Source: the human T2T-CHM13v2.0 reference genome, Homo sapiens. Taken from it: a stretch of 64,000 bases of DNA. This document shows, one piece after another, positions 43,930 through 58,998 of the stretch. The first letter of the stretch is position 1, and the number at the start of each line of letters is the position of its first letter. A program made the position numbers and the translations under genes. The notes under the pieces are model-generated. The model saw only the letters and a program-made list of their open reading frames with translations. It did not search any database and was not told the origin of the DNA. Where the stretch lies: NCBI GenBank assembly GCA_009914755.4, contig CP068257.2:27168001-27232000 (forward strand). The letters run 5' to 3'.

Positions 43930-45905
43930 TCTAAAAAACCCACTGTGTGAAATGCATTTTTCCACCCACTGCTGTGCCACCACCACCAACTATGAATACA
44001 CACATGGAGGCCAGCAGTCTTACACCCATCAGTATCCCACCCCAGTCACTGCCAGTGTGAGTGCAAGCACAGACACCAGCAACCCTGCCCCTGCCTGCGC
44101 TCTGCCACTGGTATGAGTGCACGCAGGAACTCTGCAGCCCCACTCCCGCCAGTACCCCACCCCAGCTGACACGCATACACCCCACTGTGCTGCCCCAGCT
44201 GCTGGCATGTGTGAGTTAGCACAGATCCTACAGCCACCACCCTGACAACATGCTTTGGCTACGACCACCCATCAGAGTGTTGTGGCCAGTGGACTGGGAA
44301 GACCTCAGCCCCTCCGGTACAGAAGGTTCCTAACTTTGAGGGGCCAGAGAACAAAAGCCAGGGGCCCAGTACCAGCCCCCCAGAGTTATAGTATGCAGAC
44401 CAGGAGTGCCGAGCTGAGGTTTGGCTCCCTGGTATCTTCCAGCAAAGAAAAAAACCCAGTCAGCTGAACCCACATTATACTACAATCAAACTCCCAGAGC
44501 ATCAAAAAAGATAAAAGCAAAAAAACAACAACAACAAAAAAAAACCCATCCAAAGGACATCAACTTCAAAGACTGAAGGAACATCAGGCCACACAGATGA
44601 GAAAGAACCAGAGCAAGAACTCAGGAAACTCAAAAAGCCAGAGTGTCTTCTCACCTCCAAATGTCTGCACTAGTTCCCTAGCAGTGATTCTTAACCAGGC
44701 TTAAATGGTTGACAGAAATATAATTCAAAATATGGTTAGGAACAAAGATCATCGACATCCAAGAGACAGTCAAAACCCAATCCAAGGAATCTGAGGAATT
44801 CAATAAAATGATATGAGAGGTAAAACACGAAATCGCCATTTTAAGAAAAAAAGAAACGGATCTGATACAGCTGAAAAACTCACTTCAAGAATGTCATAAT
44901 ACAATAGTAAGTACTGACAGCAGAATAAAACAAGCTGATGAAAGAATCTCAGATATTGAAGACCAGTTCTCCAAAATTACTTAGACAAAAATAAAGAAAT
45001 AATAAAGAAGAATGAATAAAACCTCCAACAAATATGGGATTATGTAAAGGGACCAAATCTATGACTCATTGGCATCCCTGAGAAAGAGAGAAAGCAAGCA
45101 ACTTGGAAAACATATTTGAGGATATCATCCATGAAAATTCTCCTAACCTAACTAGAGAGGAAACATTCAAATTAAGGAAAGGCACAGAACCCCTGTGAGA
45201 TACTATGCAAGACAATGATCTCCAGGACATGTAGTCACCAAATTCCTCAAGGTCAAAATGAAAGAAAAAATGTTAAAGACAGCTACAGAGAAGGGGCAGG
45301 TCACCTACAAAGGAAATCCTGTCAGATGAACAGCCAGCTTTTCAGCAGAAACCCCACAAGCCAGAAGAGACAGAATACCTACATTCAGCATTCTTTTTTT
45401 TTTTTTTTTTTTTTTTTTGAGACGGAGTCTCTCTCTGTCGCCCAGGCTGGAGTGCAGTGGCGCAATCTCGGCTCACTGCAAGCTCCACCTCCCAGGCTCA
45501 CGCCATTCTCCTGCCTCAGCCTCCCGAGTAGCTGGGACTACAGGCGCCCGCCACCACGCCCGGCTAATTTTTTGTATTTTTAGTAGAGACGGGGTTTCAC
45601 CGTGTTAGCCAGGATGGTCTCGATCTCCTGACCTCGTGATCCGCCTGCCTCGGCCTCCCAAAGTGCTGGGATTACAGGTGTGATCAGCATTCTTATGGAA
45701 AAGAAATTCCAACCAAGAATTTTACATGGAGCCAAACTAAGCTTCATAAGTGAAGGGGAAATAAACTCTTTTTCAAATAAGCAAATGCTAAGGTGATTTC
45801 TTACCACCAGACCTGCCTTACAAAAGGTCCTTAAGGGAGTGCTAAATATTGGAACAAAAGACCATTACTGGCCACCACAAAAACACACTTAAGTACAGAA
45901 ACCAT
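43930..45905 (+). mobile_element. Old L1 (L1PB-like): 5'UTR and ORF1 part, split from its ORF2 by the ERVL-like insertion
   Basis: GC-rich L1 5'UTR with internal repeats (ccaccccagtcactgccagtgtgag...). The ORF1-like coding sequence reads ...IQHSF at 45215-45391 and, downstream of the Alu at 45684-45905, ...ILMEKKFQPRILHGAKLSFISEGEINSFSNKQMLR...LKGVLNIGTKDHYWPPQKHT*, then stops at 45905 where the ERV LTR begins. Confidence 0.75.
45392..45683 (-). mobile_element. AluY-like (low divergence, CpG-rich) inserted in L1 ORF1
   Basis: Poly-T at 45392-45418, then gagacggagtctctctctgtcgcccaggctggagtgcagtggcgcaatctcggctcactgcaagctccacctcccaggctcacgccattctcctgcctcagcctcccgagtagctgggactacaggcgcccgccaccacgcccggctaa...ggtgtga. 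Confidence 0.92.
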
Positions 45906-46979
45906 TGTGTTAGTCAGGGTTCTCTAGAGGGACAGAACTAATAGGATAGATGTGCATATAAAAGGGAGTTTACTAAGGGGAGTTTATTAACCAGGCCCTT
46001 GTCTTCTCTTCCTCTATCGATTGATTATAGTGAACTCCCCAAGAAGCTATCAGTGCAGGCTGGGGAAGAGAAGGGGAGAGAAGGAAGGGTGGCAGGAGTG
46101 GAGACCATGGGCATTTGAGCCACTTCCTCCTGTAACTTACTTGTGCCCAGATGCATATATACCACTTCCATCTGATAACGGAATGATGCTGTGCACACCC
46201 CACCTATGGCTAGATGGGTCAGAAAACACCCAGTTCTTGATAGGCAGTTCAGGTCGCATGGTGACTTGATGACCCATAATCTAACATTCAGTTTCTACCA
46301 AAGCCCAGTAACAGGCCAAGAACTGTTTCTCAAAAGGAGAGTAGTTATCTGCAGAAGATGGCAGGGCCTTACTCCAAATCCTAGAGGCTGCCACTGTGTT
46401 TCACCTACAGGGGCCTGCCAAAGGCTCCAAACGGCATCCCTATCTGCCACCGACACCTCAAGCACCATTGGATCTGATGGGTCATATGGCCCAAGTGTAA
46501 GAACAGCTTGCACAGCAGCCTGGACCTGTTGCAGAACCTTCTCTTGTTCTGGACCCCACTGAAAAATGGCAGCCTGTCAGGTCACTGGATAAATCGGCCA
46601 GAGTAACACACTTAAATGAGGGATGTGTTGCCTTCAAAATCCAAATAGGCCCACTAGGAGTTGTGCCTTTTTCTTGGTTGTCGGAGGGGCCAAATGCAGC
46701 AACTTATCTTTTACCTTAGAAGGAATATCTCGACAGGCCCCACATCACTGAACCATTAGAAATTTTGCTGAGGTAGAAAGTCCCTAAATTTTAGTTGGAT
46801 TTATTTTCCATCCTCTGGCATGCAAATGTCTCACCAATAAGTCCAGTGTGTTCACTACTTCTCACTCACTGGATCCAATCAGTATAATGTCATCAATGTA
46901 ATAGACCAGTGTTATATCTTATGGAAGGGAAAAGTGATCAAGGTCTCTCCAAATAAGACAATGACACAAAGTCAGAGAG

Positions 46980-47549
46980 CTAATACACCCTGATGTAGGA
47001 CAGTAAAGGTATACTGCTAGCCTTGCCAGCTGAAGGGAAATTGCTTCTGGTTGGCCTTATGGACAGGAATGGAGAAAAAGTTATTTGCCAAGTACCTGGT
47101 ACATACCAGGTACCAGGAGATGTGTTAATTTGCTCAAGCAATGAAACCACATCTGGTACAGCAGCTGCACTTGTAGTCACCTCTTAGTTAAGCTTACGAT
47201 AATCCACTATCATTGTCCAAGATCCATCTGTCTTCTGTACAGTCCAAACGGGAGAGTTGAAAGGGGATGTGGTGGCGATCACCATCCCTGCATCTTTCAA
47301 GTACTTGATGGTGGCACTAATCTCTGCAATCCCTCCAGGGATGAGATATTGTTTTTGATTTACTATTTTTCTAGGTAGAGGCAGCTCTAATGACTTCCAT
47401 TTGACCTTTTCCACCATAATAGCCCTCACCCTATCAGTCAGGGAGCCAATGTGTGGGTTCTGCCAGCTGCTAAGTATGTCTATGCCAATTATGCATTCTG
47501 GCACCGGGGAAGTGACCACAGGATGAGTCCCGGGACACACTGGACCCAC
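46980..47549 (-). pseudogene. ERV reverse transcriptase N-terminal remnant
   Basis: ...[15 protein letters not shown] is followed in the next ORF by VPDVVSLLEQI..PGTWY..., fitting the RT finger region (VDYRKLN; PNLLSLL...WYTVLDL). Confidence 0.5.
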
Positions 47550-47555
47550 TTTAAG

Positions 47556-57318: not shown

Positions 57319-57535
57319 AATACAGGAGATTAATTAGGGTGTCTCTTAGTATTACCATGCCCTGTGATTAAGGTCAGTAGGAAACTACAAGAGCCCAATC
57401 CAGGCAGGACTACAAATGACCCAGACCCTTCAGGAATAAAGGTTTGGGTCACTCCACTAGGAAAAAAACCACGACCTGCTGAGATGCTTGCTGAAGGCAA
57501 AAGGAATACAGAATGAGTAGTAGAAGAAAGTAGTC

Positions 57536-57834
57536 GCCGGGCGCGGTGGCTCATGCCTGTAATCCCAGCACTTTGGGAGGCCGAGGCGGGTGGATCATGA
57601 GGTCAGGAGATCAAGACCATCCTGGCTAACAAGGTGAAACCCCGTCTCTACTAAAAATACAAAAAATTAGCCGGGCGCGGTGGCGGGCGCCTGTAGTCCC
57701 AGCTACTCGGGAGGCTGAGGCAGGAGAATGGCGTGAACCCGGGAAGCGGAGCTTGCAGTGAGCTGAGATTGCGCCACTGCAGTCCGCAGTCCGGCCTGGG
57801 CGACAGAGCGAGACTCCGTCTCAAAAAAAAAAAA
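57536..57834 (+). mobile_element. AluYb8-type young Alu with perfect 11 bp TSD, nested in ERV copy 2
   Basis: gccgggcgcggtggctcatgcctgtaatcccagcactttgggaggccgaggcgggtggatcatgaggtcagg... carries the Yb-lineage 7 bp duplication ccactgcagtccgcagtccggcctgggcg. The TSD agaaagtagtc occurs at 57525-57535 and 57835-57845, and many CpGs are retained. Confidence 0.85.
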
Positions 57835-58998
57835 AGAAAGTAGTCATCAGTACCAGCTACGACCATGTGACCAACTGCAGAAAGAAGGACTGTAATTGTC
57901 ATGAGTATTTCCTCCTTTTGTTAAAAACATGTTTTTGCATGCATACACTTGTACTAAGAAAATATCTTCATTTTATTTCCTTTCTCCTTTATCATGTGAC
58001 ATAAGATTTATTGACTTCACATCAGCATTTAAGTACTGTTAACTTTATGTATTTGGGTCGGGGATTGGTGCGTTTCTGGTTGTACGAAGGATAGTTGAAT
58101 TATGTTACGTGTCATTATGACCTTATTATTGCCTTTATTTGAAGATTATGTGTGATCTCAGCAGATGTGTATAGGCTCAAGTTGACAAGGGGTGGATTTG
58201 CGATGGTTAATACTGAGTGTCAACTTGTTTGGATTGAAGGATACAAAGGATTGATCCTGGGTGTGTCTCTGAGGGTGTTGCCAAAGGAGATTAACATTTG
58301 AGTCAGTGGGCTGGGAAAGGCAGATCCACCTTTAATCTGGGTGAGCACAATCCAATCAGCTGCCAGCATGGCTAGAATATAAGCAGGCAGAAAAATGTAA
58401 AAAGAGAGACTGGCCTAGCCTTCCAGCCTATATCTTTCTCCCATGCTGGATGCTTCCTGCCCGTGAACGCGGGACTCCTAGTTCCTCAGTTTTGGAACTT
58501 GGACTGGCTCTCCTTGCTCCTCAGCCTGCAGACGGCTTATTGTAGGACCTTGTGATTGTGTGAGTTAATACTTAATAAACTCCCTTTTATATATATATAT
58601 ATATATATATATATATATATATATATATATATACTTCATTAGTTCTGTCCCTCTAGAGAACGCTAATAAACCAAGGTTCCGTTTTACTGTATTCTACTAC
58701 AAGGCTTTGAGAAAATGGTAAGTGGTGTTAACTTACAGGAGATCACAGACACTGGTGAAAACCTAAACAAAGCTAGACATACTTTCTCTAGAAGGAAAAA
58801 GCCCTTACGTATACACAGAGGGTGGCCAGGTTTCTGGAAGTCCATAAACTTCAGATTAAGAGACCACCAAGGAGAGACTGTCTGTCATTTCTCTGTTTTT
58901 CAGAGTAAGATTATCAGGACCGTAGAAACTGTTCTTATTCCTTGGCCTCACTGAACACTTGCTGCTCTGGCACCAGAAACAGTCTTTTCTATAATTTA

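What the first reader, a model, noticed from the sequence alone, without database searches (positions are those of the whole stretch)
45905..58670. Two copies of the same ERVL-like provirus in inverted orientation ~5 kb apart form a large inverted-repeat structure
Copy 1 (45905-50104, minus) and copy 2 (55121-58670, plus) share about 85% identical LTRs of ~500 bp and homologous gag segments. The shared gag stretches are MDQAEFIDLGPLNRDSAFNVVAWGVKRGSNSLFAWLAEMWIKRWPTVSELEMPDLPWFNV and ELDQAEFIDLGPPSRDSAFNVAAQGVKKGSNSLFA..AEIWIKRWPTVNELEMPDLPWFNV. The two copies face each other across a 5 kb spacer that contains L1 ORF2, an Alu and an L1 5'UTR fragment. Inverted kb-scale homologous arms are substrates for non-allelic homologous recombination, which inverts the spacer, and for hairpin or cruciform formation during replication. 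At ~85% arm identity NAHR efficiency is low but not zero. The divergence also argues for two independent ancient insertions rather than a recent segmental inversion-duplication.
Basis: partly seen in the sequence, partly recalled or inferred. Interest (0 to 1): 0.55.

Follow-up and report, generated by a model that had tools for sequence, protein, structure and literature searches.

The report
Two decayed HERV-L proviruses, head-to-head
Two ancient, broken copies of the human endogenous retrovirus HERV-L lie in opposite orientation 5 kb apart; they inserted independently tens of millions of years ago and are now too diverged and too far apart to be more than an ordinary piece of repeat landscape.

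Summary
Copy 1 (45906-50103, minus) and copy 2 (55122-~58670, plus) share about 1.55 kb of inverted homology across a 5,018-bp spacer. That homology is the LTR (82.6-84.1% identity) plus two gag blocks (86.3% over 190 bp, 86.6% over 827 bp). Both quoted peptides are exact.

The ERVL call is right. Both copies are HERV-L: TGT...ACA LTRs, a tRNA-Leu(UAA) primer-binding site, Fv1-like gag, foamy-virus-like PR-RT, and a dUTPase after integrase.

Independent insertion is well supported:
- Copy 1 sits inside an L1 whose reading resumes across the empty site, with TSD ACCAT/ATCAT.
- Copy 2's LTRs carry a ~110-bp 5' extension and 11 shared derived sites that copy 1 lacks.
- Copy 2's own LTRs differ less (K2P 0.113) than the two copies do (0.147-0.170).
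- The internal deletions differ.

The instability idea is weak. The longest perfect match between the arms is 46 bp. Published NAHR inversions use repeats more than 90% identical. A 5-kb spacer effectively rules out cruciform extrusion. The window holds 59 other inverted repeat pairs of at least 250 bp, including Alu pairs at 92% identity. One independent human contig is colinear across the copy 1/spacer junction.

Verdict: real, correctly named, ordinary and already known in kind.

The parts
45906..50103 (-). Copy 1: HERV-L provirus remnant. It runs 5' LTR, PBS, gag, PR, RT, part of RNase H, then a deletion, then the last ~80 bp of the 3' LTR.
   Evidence: Sequence read; self-BLAST; Pfam RVT_1.
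45901..45905 (.). Target-site duplication of copy 1, left copy (ACCAT on the + strand).
   Evidence: It pairs with ATCAT at 50104-50108 (4 of 5 bases match, the difference being one transition).
50104..50108 (.). Target-site duplication of copy 1, right copy (ATCAT on the + strand).
   Evidence: After removing the element and one TSD copy, the L1 ORF1 C-terminus reads straight on into the start of ORF2.
49620..50103 (-). Copy 1 5' LTR (484 bp, TGT...ACA). It is the short form, lacks the 5' extension, and contains a TA/TC-rich tract.
49598..49615 (-). Primer-binding site, TGGTACCAGGAGTGGTTC. The first 15 nt are exactly complementary to the 3' end of tRNA-Leu(UAA).
   Evidence: a single exact hit at 49601-49615. 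The published probe against the tRNA-LeuTAA 3' fragment is TGGTACCAGGAGTGGGGT (PMC6049499).
47860..49528 (-). Copy 1 gag, degenerate, with stops and frameshifts. It includes a 473-bp proline-rich segment (48678-49149) that copy 2 lacks.
47556..47813 (-). Copy 1 protease fragment with the LLDTGS active-site motif.
46757..47549 (-). Copy 1 reverse transcriptase, including YIDD. It carries frameshifts.
   Evidence: Pfam RVT_1 E 4.7e-7 at 46757-46993. The best solved relatives are foamy-virus PR-RT chains 7KSE and 7O0H.
45906..45985 (-). Remnant of copy 1's 3' LTR: the last ~80 bp, ending ...CTGACTAACACA.
50109..55121 (.). Spacer. It contains the L1 ORF2 endonuclease region (~50170-51290, +), an Alu (51294-51620), a (GGAG/GGAA)n tract (53720-53822), a short Alu fragment (53971-54047), and otherwise sequence unique within this window.
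55122..58670 (+). Copy 2: HERV-L provirus remnant. It runs 5' LTR, part of gag, then a deletion, then the integrase C-terminus, dUTPase and 3' LTR, with an Alu insertion. The 3' end is ambiguous by about 3 bp.
55122..55677 (+). Copy 2 5' LTR, the long form with a ~110-bp 5' extension. Its 3' end, the PBS and the leader are deleted at a TA-rich tract.
55683..56775 (+). Copy 2 gag fragment, homologous to copy 1's 49339-47735 minus the 473-bp segment.
56776..57520 (+). Copy 2 integrase C-terminus plus dUTPase. The Pfam dUTPase match lies at 57064-57375.
   Evidence: Pfam PF00692 E 4.7e-9. PDB dUTPases match from E 2.5e-9.
57536..57835 (+). Alu inserted into copy 2, flanked by a 12-bp TSD AAGAAAGTAGTC (57524-57535 and 57834-57845).
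58081..58670 (+). Copy 2 3' LTR. Clear homology to the 5' LTR starts at 58119. It contains a perfect (TA)23 at 58588-58633.

Best explanation
The region holds two separately integrated, long-dead HERV-L (class III, MLT2A-LTR) proviruses that happen to lie head-to-head 5 kb apart. Copy 1 integrated into a pre-existing L1 element. Copy 2 integrated nearby, from a related but distinct source element with a longer LTR. Each copy later lost different internal segments, and copy 2 acquired an Alu. The inverted homology of about 1.55 kb at 83-87% identity is a passive by-product of these events. It has no function and, in normal double-stranded DNA, is a very poor substrate for homologous recombination or cruciform formation. 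The identity of the elements, their structure, the independence of the insertions and the divergence values are shown directly. The absence of any recombination activity is inferred from published thresholds plus one extra haplotype.
For: Identity as HERV-L:
- Exact 15-nt tRNA-Leu(UAA) PBS.
- Gag relatives are named 'Friend virus susceptibility protein 1-like'. Fv1 is known to be close to MuERV-L gag (Benit 1997, as cited in PMC1224870).
- The PR-RT stretch is closest to foamy-virus PR-RT structures.
- A dUTPase follows the integrase. This is the MuERV-L/HERV-L position (PMC1224870; PMC4724089).
- LTR lengths of 484 bp versus at least 556-590 bp fit the MLT2A1 (444 bp) and MLT2A2 (549 bp) consensus lengths plus microsatellite expansion (PMC8559712).

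Independent insertion:
- Copy 1's flanks are one L1. ORF1 domains PF02994 and PF17490 lie on the left, and the ORF2 endonuclease lies on the right.
- The L1 reading continues across the reconstructed empty site, with TSD ACCAT/ATCAT.
- Copy 2's two LTRs share a ~110-bp 5' extension and 11 derived substitutions that copy 1 lacks.
- K2P is 0.113+-0.018 within copy 2, against 0.147-0.170 between the copies' LTRs and 0.140-0.148 in gag.
- The flanking Alus are in direct, not inverted, orientation.
- The deletion breakpoints differ between the copies.

Inertness:
- The longest exact match between the arms is 46 bp, and 100-bp window identity peaks at 95%.
- The published thresholds are not met.
- Human contig L001 is colinear with window 45684-53743, with 8 differences in about 8 kb, so it shows the same orientation at the copy 1/spacer junction.
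Against: - NAHR with matching tracts under 50 bp has been seen between alpha-globin repeats 5 kb apart (PMC2583991).
- A 1.6-kb inverted THE1C (ERVL-MaLR) pair does mediate a 7.1-kb polymorphic human inversion, HsInv0347 (PMC3961182).
- In long single-stranded DNA, yeast inverted repeats tolerate 25% divergence and 30-kb spacers (PMC10164571).
- Only one extra haplotype was examined, at one junction only. No ape or pangenome assemblies could be queried.
- Copy 2's TSD is ambiguous: CTGAG vs CCAAG, a 3 of 5 match, explicable by two CpG decays from CCGAG but weak as evidence.
- The MLT2A1/MLT2A2 subfamily assignment rests on length and structure only, because no Dfam or Repbase consensus was available.
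Confidence: 0.92

Rival explanations
1. The pair is a functioning NAHR substrate. The 5-kb spacer has inverted, or recurrently inverts, in human or ape populations by crossover within the LTR/gag arms.
For: - The arms are inverted, about 1.55 kb long and only 5 kb apart.
- There is a direct precedent in HsInv0347, a 7.1-kb inversion between 1.6-kb THE1C copies.
- Proximity relaxes homology requirements, as at alpha-globin where tracts under 50 bp sufficed.
Against: - Identity is 82.6-86.6%, below the >90% seen in all 24 validated NAHR inversions.
- The longest perfect tract is 46 bp, against MEPS of 134-500 bp.
- Three indels interrupt the arms.
- No high-identity patch suggests gene conversion; the best 100-bp window is 95% identical.
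- One independent haplotype is in the same orientation.
Confidence: 0.04
2. The two copies arose from one provirus by an inverted segmental duplication, not by two integrations.
For: The copies are close together in inverted orientation. They are of similar age: 15 substitutions are private to copy 1's LTR, against 14 and 21 private to copy 2's two LTRs.
Against: - Copy 1 has its own TSD and interrupts a colinear L1.
- There is no inverted flank homology outside the elements.
- Both LTRs of copy 2 share a 110-bp extension and 11 derived sites absent from copy 1. A post-integration duplicate would have inherited these.
- Copy 1's LTR is no closer to copy 2's 5' LTR (K2P 0.170) than to its 3' LTR (0.147).
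Confidence: 0.02
3. The inverted arms matter at the single-strand level. One possibility is fold-back annealing in long resected or replicative ssDNA, giving inverted dimers. Another is a long imperfect dsRNA hairpin, if a read-through transcript spans both copies.
For: - In yeast ssDNA contexts, inverted repeats with up to 25% divergence and 30-kb spacers still interact.
- MLT2A LTRs are promoters active at the 4-8-cell stage.
- DUX4-like motifs with one mismatch are present in the LTRs.
Against: - This is generic to any of the 59 inverted pairs in this window and to very many such pairs genome-wide.
- There is no evidence that a transcript spans the region.
- The two 5' LTR promoters point away from each other, so their own transcripts are not complementary.
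- The DUX4-like motif count in the window is not above chance: 22 found against 29.8 expected.
Confidence: 0.02

Closest known systems
HERV-L (HERVL-int with MLT2A1/MLT2A2 LTRs; class III, spuma-like ERV; about 200 proviruses and more than 3000 copies of each LTR family in the human genome)
   Same: - tRNA-Leu PBS.
- Fv1-like gag.
- Foamy-like PR-RT.
- dUTPase C-terminal to integrase, and no room for env.
- TGT...ACA LTRs of about 450-550 bp with a TA-rich tract near the 3' end.
- A 5-bp TSD.
- LTR divergence of about 11%, just under the 13-42% range reported for class III.
   Different: Nothing of kind. Both copies are heavily deleted. Copy 1 lacks integrase, dUTPase and most of its 3' LTR. 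Copy 2 lacks the PBS, the leader, part of gag and everything from protease through most of integrase. The subfamily names could not be confirmed against a consensus library.
HsInv0347: a human (and gorilla) polymorphic 7.1-kb inversion mediated by two inverted 1.6-kb THE1C (ERVL-MaLR) elements (PMC3961182)
   Same: Two ERVL-superfamily elements in inverted orientation, with arms of about 1.6 kb and a spacer of about 5.5 kb.
   Different: NAHR inversions in that series have inverted repeats more than 90% identical (10.1101/501981). Here identity is 83-87%, with a 46-bp maximum perfect tract and three indels. No inverted allele is known or was seen for this locus.
Inverted Alu repeats as fragile or recombinogenic motifs (Lobachev-laboratory yeast assays, PMC10164571)
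   Same: Diverged interspersed repeats in inverted orientation. Instability depends on arm identity and spacer length.
   Different: Those effects in dsDNA need spacers of tens of bp, and a 12-to-100-bp increase gives a 300-fold drop. Here the spacer is 5,018 bp. Only the ssDNA (resection) regime would tolerate these parameters.

Membership tests
HERV-L (ERV class III) | Primer-binding site complementary to the 3' end of tRNA-Leu | tested here: met
   Copy 1 has TGGTACCAGGAGTGG exact at 49601-49615(-), 5 nt after the LTR end. It equals the first 15 nt of the anti-tRNA-LeuTAA-3'-fragment probe TGGTACCAGGAGTGGGGT (PMC6049499), giving 15 of 18 over the full PBS. The region is deleted in copy 2.
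HERV-L (ERV class III) | gag related to MuERV-L gag / Fv1 | tested here: met
   381 homologues were found. The named ones are 'Friend virus susceptibility protein 1-like' (P0112, P0115, P0116; E about 1e-58). Many hits carry PF17687, and the window's own gag has a weak PF17687 match.
HERV-L (ERV class III) | pol most similar to spumavirus (foamy virus) pol | tested here: met
   The best PDB sequence matches of copy 1's PR-RT are foamy-virus PR-RT chains 7KSE/7KSF (E 2e-6) and 7O0H/7O24. Pfam RVT_1 also matches.
HERV-L (ERV class III) | dUTPase domain at the C-terminus of pol, downstream of integrase | tested here: met
   Copy 2 has PF00692 at E 4.7e-9, at 57064-57375, directly after integrase-like sequence and about 400 non-Alu bp before the 3' LTR. 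The position agrees with PMC1224870 and PMC4724089. The region is deleted in copy 1.
HERV-L (ERV class III) | LTRs match the MLT2A1/MLT2A2 consensus sequences | not testable with these tools
   No Dfam or Repbase library is available. Indirect evidence: TGT...ACA termini; lengths of 484 bp (copy 1) and at least 556-590 bp (copy 2) against consensus lengths of 444 and 549 bp; the ~110-bp difference sits at the 5' end; my recollection of the MLT2A consensus agrees.
HERV-L (ERV class III) | 5-bp target-site duplication | tested here: inconclusive
   Copy 1 has ACCAT/ATCAT, a 4 of 5 match, supported by L1 continuity. Copy 2 has CTGAG/CCAAG, a 3 of 5 match, and the LTR end is ambiguous by about 3 bp.
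Inverted repeats that mediate NAHR inversions | Two homologous segments in inverted orientation on one chromosome | tested here: met
Inverted repeats that mediate NAHR inversions | High arm identity (more than 90% in all validated cases; usually more than 95%) | tested here: not met
   82.6-86.6% by BLAST, with K2P of 0.14-0.17. The threshold comes from 10.1101/501981 and PMC2583991.
Inverted repeats that mediate NAHR inversions | An uninterrupted identity tract of at least the minimal efficient processing segment (134-232 bp mitotic; 300-500 bp meiotic) | tested here: not met
   The longest exact match is 46 bp, and the next longest are 36, 36, 36 and 32 bp.
Inverted repeats that mediate NAHR inversions | Both orientations of the intervening segment observed among haplotypes or species | not testable with these tools
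   Only one extra human contig (L001) was retrievable. It is colinear over 45684-53743. Contigs spanning copy 2 were not on record.
Cruciform/hairpin-forming palindromes | Short or absent spacer and near-perfect arms | tested here: not met
   The spacer is 5,018 bp and the arms are 83-87% identical with indels. For the dependence on spacer and identity, see PMC10164571.

The most novel reading that the evidence does not exclude
Despite the low identity, the close spacing lets the HERV-L arms occasionally recombine or fold back. On this reading the 50.1-55.1 kb segment would be an unrecognised polymorphic or lineage-specific inversion, with arms below the >90% identity of validated NAHR inversions, or a fold-back breakpoint in resected ssDNA.
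Probability: 0.03. Interest if true: 0.3.

Novelty: already known. Interest (0 to 1): 0.08.

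Why it matters
It matters little. The locus is a textbook example of nested, decayed transposable elements: an L1 hit by a HERV-L and an Alu, and a second HERV-L hit by another Alu. With more than 3000 copies each of MLT2A1 and MLT2A2 in the genome, dozens of HERV-L pairs within 10 kb of each other are expected by chance. 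That is my own rough estimate, assuming uniform insertion. If an inversion were ever found here, it would extend the lower identity limit of ERV-mediated NAHR, but nothing in the sequence points to that.

Tried and rejected
1. Segmental inversion-duplication. Rejected on the TSD and L1 continuity, on LTR structure shared only within copy 2, and on the site patterns.

2. A shared internal deletion as a sign of a common deleted master. The gag homology ends at 47735/56775 only because copy 2 jumps to integrase there, while copy 1 continues into protease. The breakpoints are not shared.

3. Gene-conversion patches between the arms. None were found; 100-bp window identity ranges from 75% to 95%.

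4. A direct test of spacer orientation in other assemblies through exact-ORF look-ups.
   - One 10.8-kb human-derived metagenome contig (L001/L003) covers copy 1 plus 3.6 kb of spacer and is colinear.
   - It turns chimeric at the Alu at 45391-45683.
   - Four ORFs of copy 2 were not on record.
   - L002 lies wholly inside copy 1 and is uninformative.

5. Pfam on the frameshifted L1 ORF2 frame gave nothing. The PDB sequence search then confirmed it.

6. Benit et al. 1999 (PMC104094), the primary ERV-L paper, is not held.

7. DUX4-motif enrichment. There is none at the window level.

8. The 'L1 5'UTR fragment' in the spacer could not be verified.

Full report
OBSERVATION.
- A minus-strand element at 45906-50103 and a plus-strand element at 55122-~58670 share inverted homology in four blocks.
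- Block 1 is the LTR. 49631-50099 matches copy 2's 3' LTR at 58664-58203 (84.1% over 472 bp) and its 5' LTR at 55677-55239 (82.6% over 447 bp).
- Block 2 is a 190-bp leader/gag stretch at 86.3%.
- Block 3 is an 827-bp gag stretch at 86.6%, which is the best non-self match in the window.
- Block 4 is a weak ~70-bp extension.
- E-values are effectively zero, so chance is not an issue.
- Both quoted peptides occur verbatim as ORFs at 48282-48578(-) and 55816-56073(+).
- The spacer is 5,018 bp.
- The 5' ends of the two elements face each other.

WHAT THE ELEMENTS ARE. Reading copy 1 in sense gives the following order.
- A 484-bp LTR with TGT...ACA ends.
- Five bases later, TGGTACCAGGAGTGG. This is a unique exact hit in the window. 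It equals the first 15 nt of a published probe complementary to the 3' end of human tRNA-Leu(UAA) (PMC6049499).
- A degenerate gag.
- A protease with LLDTGS.
- A reverse transcriptase with YIDD (Pfam RVT_1).
- A weak RNase H-like match.
- An abrupt junction to the last ~80 bp of a 3' LTR.

Copy 2 has a longer LTR. It then passes directly into gag, because the LTR's 3' end, the PBS and the leader are deleted. It lacks a 473-bp gag segment that copy 1 has. At ~56775 it jumps to the integrase C-terminus, followed by a dUTPase (Pfam PF00692, E 4.7e-9; FIV and other dUTPases in PDB). It also carries an Alu with a 12-bp TSD, and then the 3' LTR.

Further evidence fits HERV-L.
- The gag fragment finds 381 relatives. 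The named ones are 'Friend virus susceptibility protein 1-like'.
- The closest solved relatives of the PR-RT stretch are foamy-virus PR-RT chains.
- The defining set for HERV-L/MuERV-L is a tRNA-Leu PBS, Fv1-like gag, spuma-like pol, a dUTPase after integrase, and no env (PMC1224870; PMC4724089).
- The LTR length difference is a ~110-bp 5' extension present in both copy 2 LTRs and absent from copy 1. It matches the published consensus lengths of MLT2A1 (444 bp) and MLT2A2 (549 bp) (PMC8559712).
- I could not align to the consensus sequences themselves, so the subfamily names are inferred.

INDEPENDENT INSERTIONS. Four lines agree.
1. Copy 1 lies inside an L1.
   - The left flank encodes the L1 ORF1 RBD and dsRBD domains (PF02994, PF17490).
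   - The right flank encodes the start of ORF2 and its endonuclease (E 2.5e-29 to 1VYB).
   - After removing the element and one copy of the 5-bp duplication (ACCAT/ATCAT), the L1 sequence reads straight through.
2. There is no inverted homology outside the elements, and the nearest flanking Alus are in direct orientation.
3. On the LTR core, excluding the extension and the TA tract, K2P values are as follows.
   - 0.113+-0.018 between copy 2's own LTRs.
   - 0.147 and 0.170 between copy 1's LTR and each copy 2 LTR.
   - 0.140-0.148 in gag.
   - Of 32 sites where both copy 2 LTRs differ from copy 1, a third MLT2-type LTR at 13151-13675 used as outgroup polarises 11 as shared-derived in copy 2 and 15 as derived in copy 1.
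   - Private changes number 21 and 14 in the two copy 2 LTRs.
   - So the two integrations are of similar age but came from source elements that already differed.
4. The internal deletions have different breakpoints.

LTR divergence of 0.113 implies roughly 26 Myr at 2.2e-9 per site per year, and more at slower hominoid rates. The rate is an assumption on my part.

DOES THE INVERTED STRUCTURE DO ANYTHING? The homologous arms total about 1.55 kb, but they are broken by three indels.
- The longest perfect match is 46 bp, and the best 100-bp window is 95% identical.
- Reviews place the minimal efficient processing segment at 134-232 bp in cultured mammalian cells and 300-500 bp in human meiosis, with rare exceptions under 50 bp for repeats 5 kb apart (PMC2583991).
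- In a survey of 45 human polymorphic inversions, all 24 attributed to NAHR had inverted repeats more than 90% identical (654 bp to 24 kb). Repeats of 83-86% identity accompanied non-homologous events (10.1101/501981).
HsInv0347 is a 7.1-kb inversion between two inverted 1.6-kb THE1C elements, polymorphic in humans and gorillas (PMC3961182). The concept is therefore known, and this locus falls short of it on identity.
- For cruciform or hairpin formation in duplex DNA, yeast Alu-IR assays show about a 300-fold drop from a 12-bp to a 100-bp spacer, and loss of instability as homology falls toward 75%. Only in long ssDNA do 25% divergence and 30-kb spacers remain permissive (PMC10164571).
- The window contains 59 inverted pairs of at least 250 bp. 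Two are Alu pairs at 92% identity, and one of those has a 58-bp perfect tract. The HERV-L pair is therefore not the most recombinogenic inverted repeat even locally.

A SMALL DIRECT TEST. An exact-ORF look-up recovered a 10.8-kb human-derived contig from a JGI metagenome (L001).
- It is colinear with window 45684-53743.
- It has 8 differences in about 8 kb, before becoming chimeric at an Alu.
- It carries the same copy 1/spacer junction, which is the reference orientation.
- Look-ups for four copy 2 ORFs found nothing.
- This amounts to one extra haplotype at one junction. It is consistent with the inert reading but far from decisive.

VERDICT. The inference of two independent ancient insertions is well supported. 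The inverted-repeat structure is an incidental arrangement of known elements, and there is no sign that it is or was recombinationally active. It is already known in kind and of low interest.

Noticed in passing
window 36173-36643: A ~470-bp almost pure A/T tract, an imperfect (TA)n / TATAA-type repeat, that is self-reverse-complementary (84% over 488 bp against its own reverse complement). It is embedded in L1-like sequence. With no spacer, it is a far better candidate for cruciform or fragile-site behaviour than the HERV-L pair.
   Followed up: partly
window 13151-13675 (+): A third MLT2-type LTR, apparently solo. It has a 66-bp internal insertion and K2P of 0.20-0.24 to the other LTRs, so it probably belongs to a different MLT2 subfamily. 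I used it as the outgroup.
   Followed up: partly
window 45402-45678 vs 57556-57839; 33452-33740 vs 45395-45683: Inverted Alu pairs at 92.3% and 92.4% identity, about 11.7-11.9 kb apart. The first pair has a 58-bp perfect match. One member of it is the Alu inserted inside HERV-L copy 2. These pairs are more identical than the HERV-L arms.
   Followed up: partly
window 49944-49954(-), 50066-50076(+), 58348-58358(+), 13301-13311(+): CAATCTAATCA / CAATCCAATCA sequences in the MLT2A-type LTRs, one mismatch from the DUX4 motif TAAYBBAATCA. Copy 2's 5' LTR has the site mutated (AATCTACTCA). MLT2A LTRs are reported DUX4-bound promoters at the 4-8-cell stage (PMC8559712). Window-wide, the motif count is not above chance (22 vs 29.8 expected).
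   Followed up: partly
window 58588-58633 and 49661-49716: A perfect (TA)23 microsatellite in copy 2's 3' LTR, and a TA/TC-rich quasi-palindrome (82% self-complementary over 56 bp) at the same LTR position in copy 1. Copy 2's 5' LTR is truncated within the equivalent TA tract (55622-55682), which suggests the tract promoted the deletion.
   Followed up: no
protein P0003: A 'hypothetical protein G8W03_15765 [Clostridium botulinum D/C]' of 208 aa is 80% identical to this HERV-L gag. It almost certainly reflects mammalian DNA contamination in a bacterial assembly.
   Followed up: no
L001 8352-10800 (JGI 3300032031 contig Ga0326364_1112379): The metagenome contig carrying human DNA matches the window up to the Alu at 45391-45683, with 53 differences inside the Alu. 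It then continues into an unrelated locus, which is an assembly chimera formed at an Alu.
   Followed up: yes
L002 (JGI 3300022690), corresponding to window 46134-50075: This second contig differs from the window at 12 positions in 3.9 kb (0.3%), against 1 for L001 over the same range. It is either an unusually divergent haplotype of copy 1 or DNA from a different host.
   Followed up: no
window ~44000-45905 and 50109-~51300 (+): The L1 that hosts copy 1 has a recognisable ORF1 and ORF2 endonuclease, but the homology stops near 51.3 kb at an Alu. This is a 3' truncation, which is atypical for L1 and suggests a later deletion or rearrangement. The 3.5 kb from 51.6 to 55.1 kb has no repeat match within the window apart from a (GGAG)n tract at 53720-53822 and a short Alu fragment at 53971-54047.
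   Followed up: no
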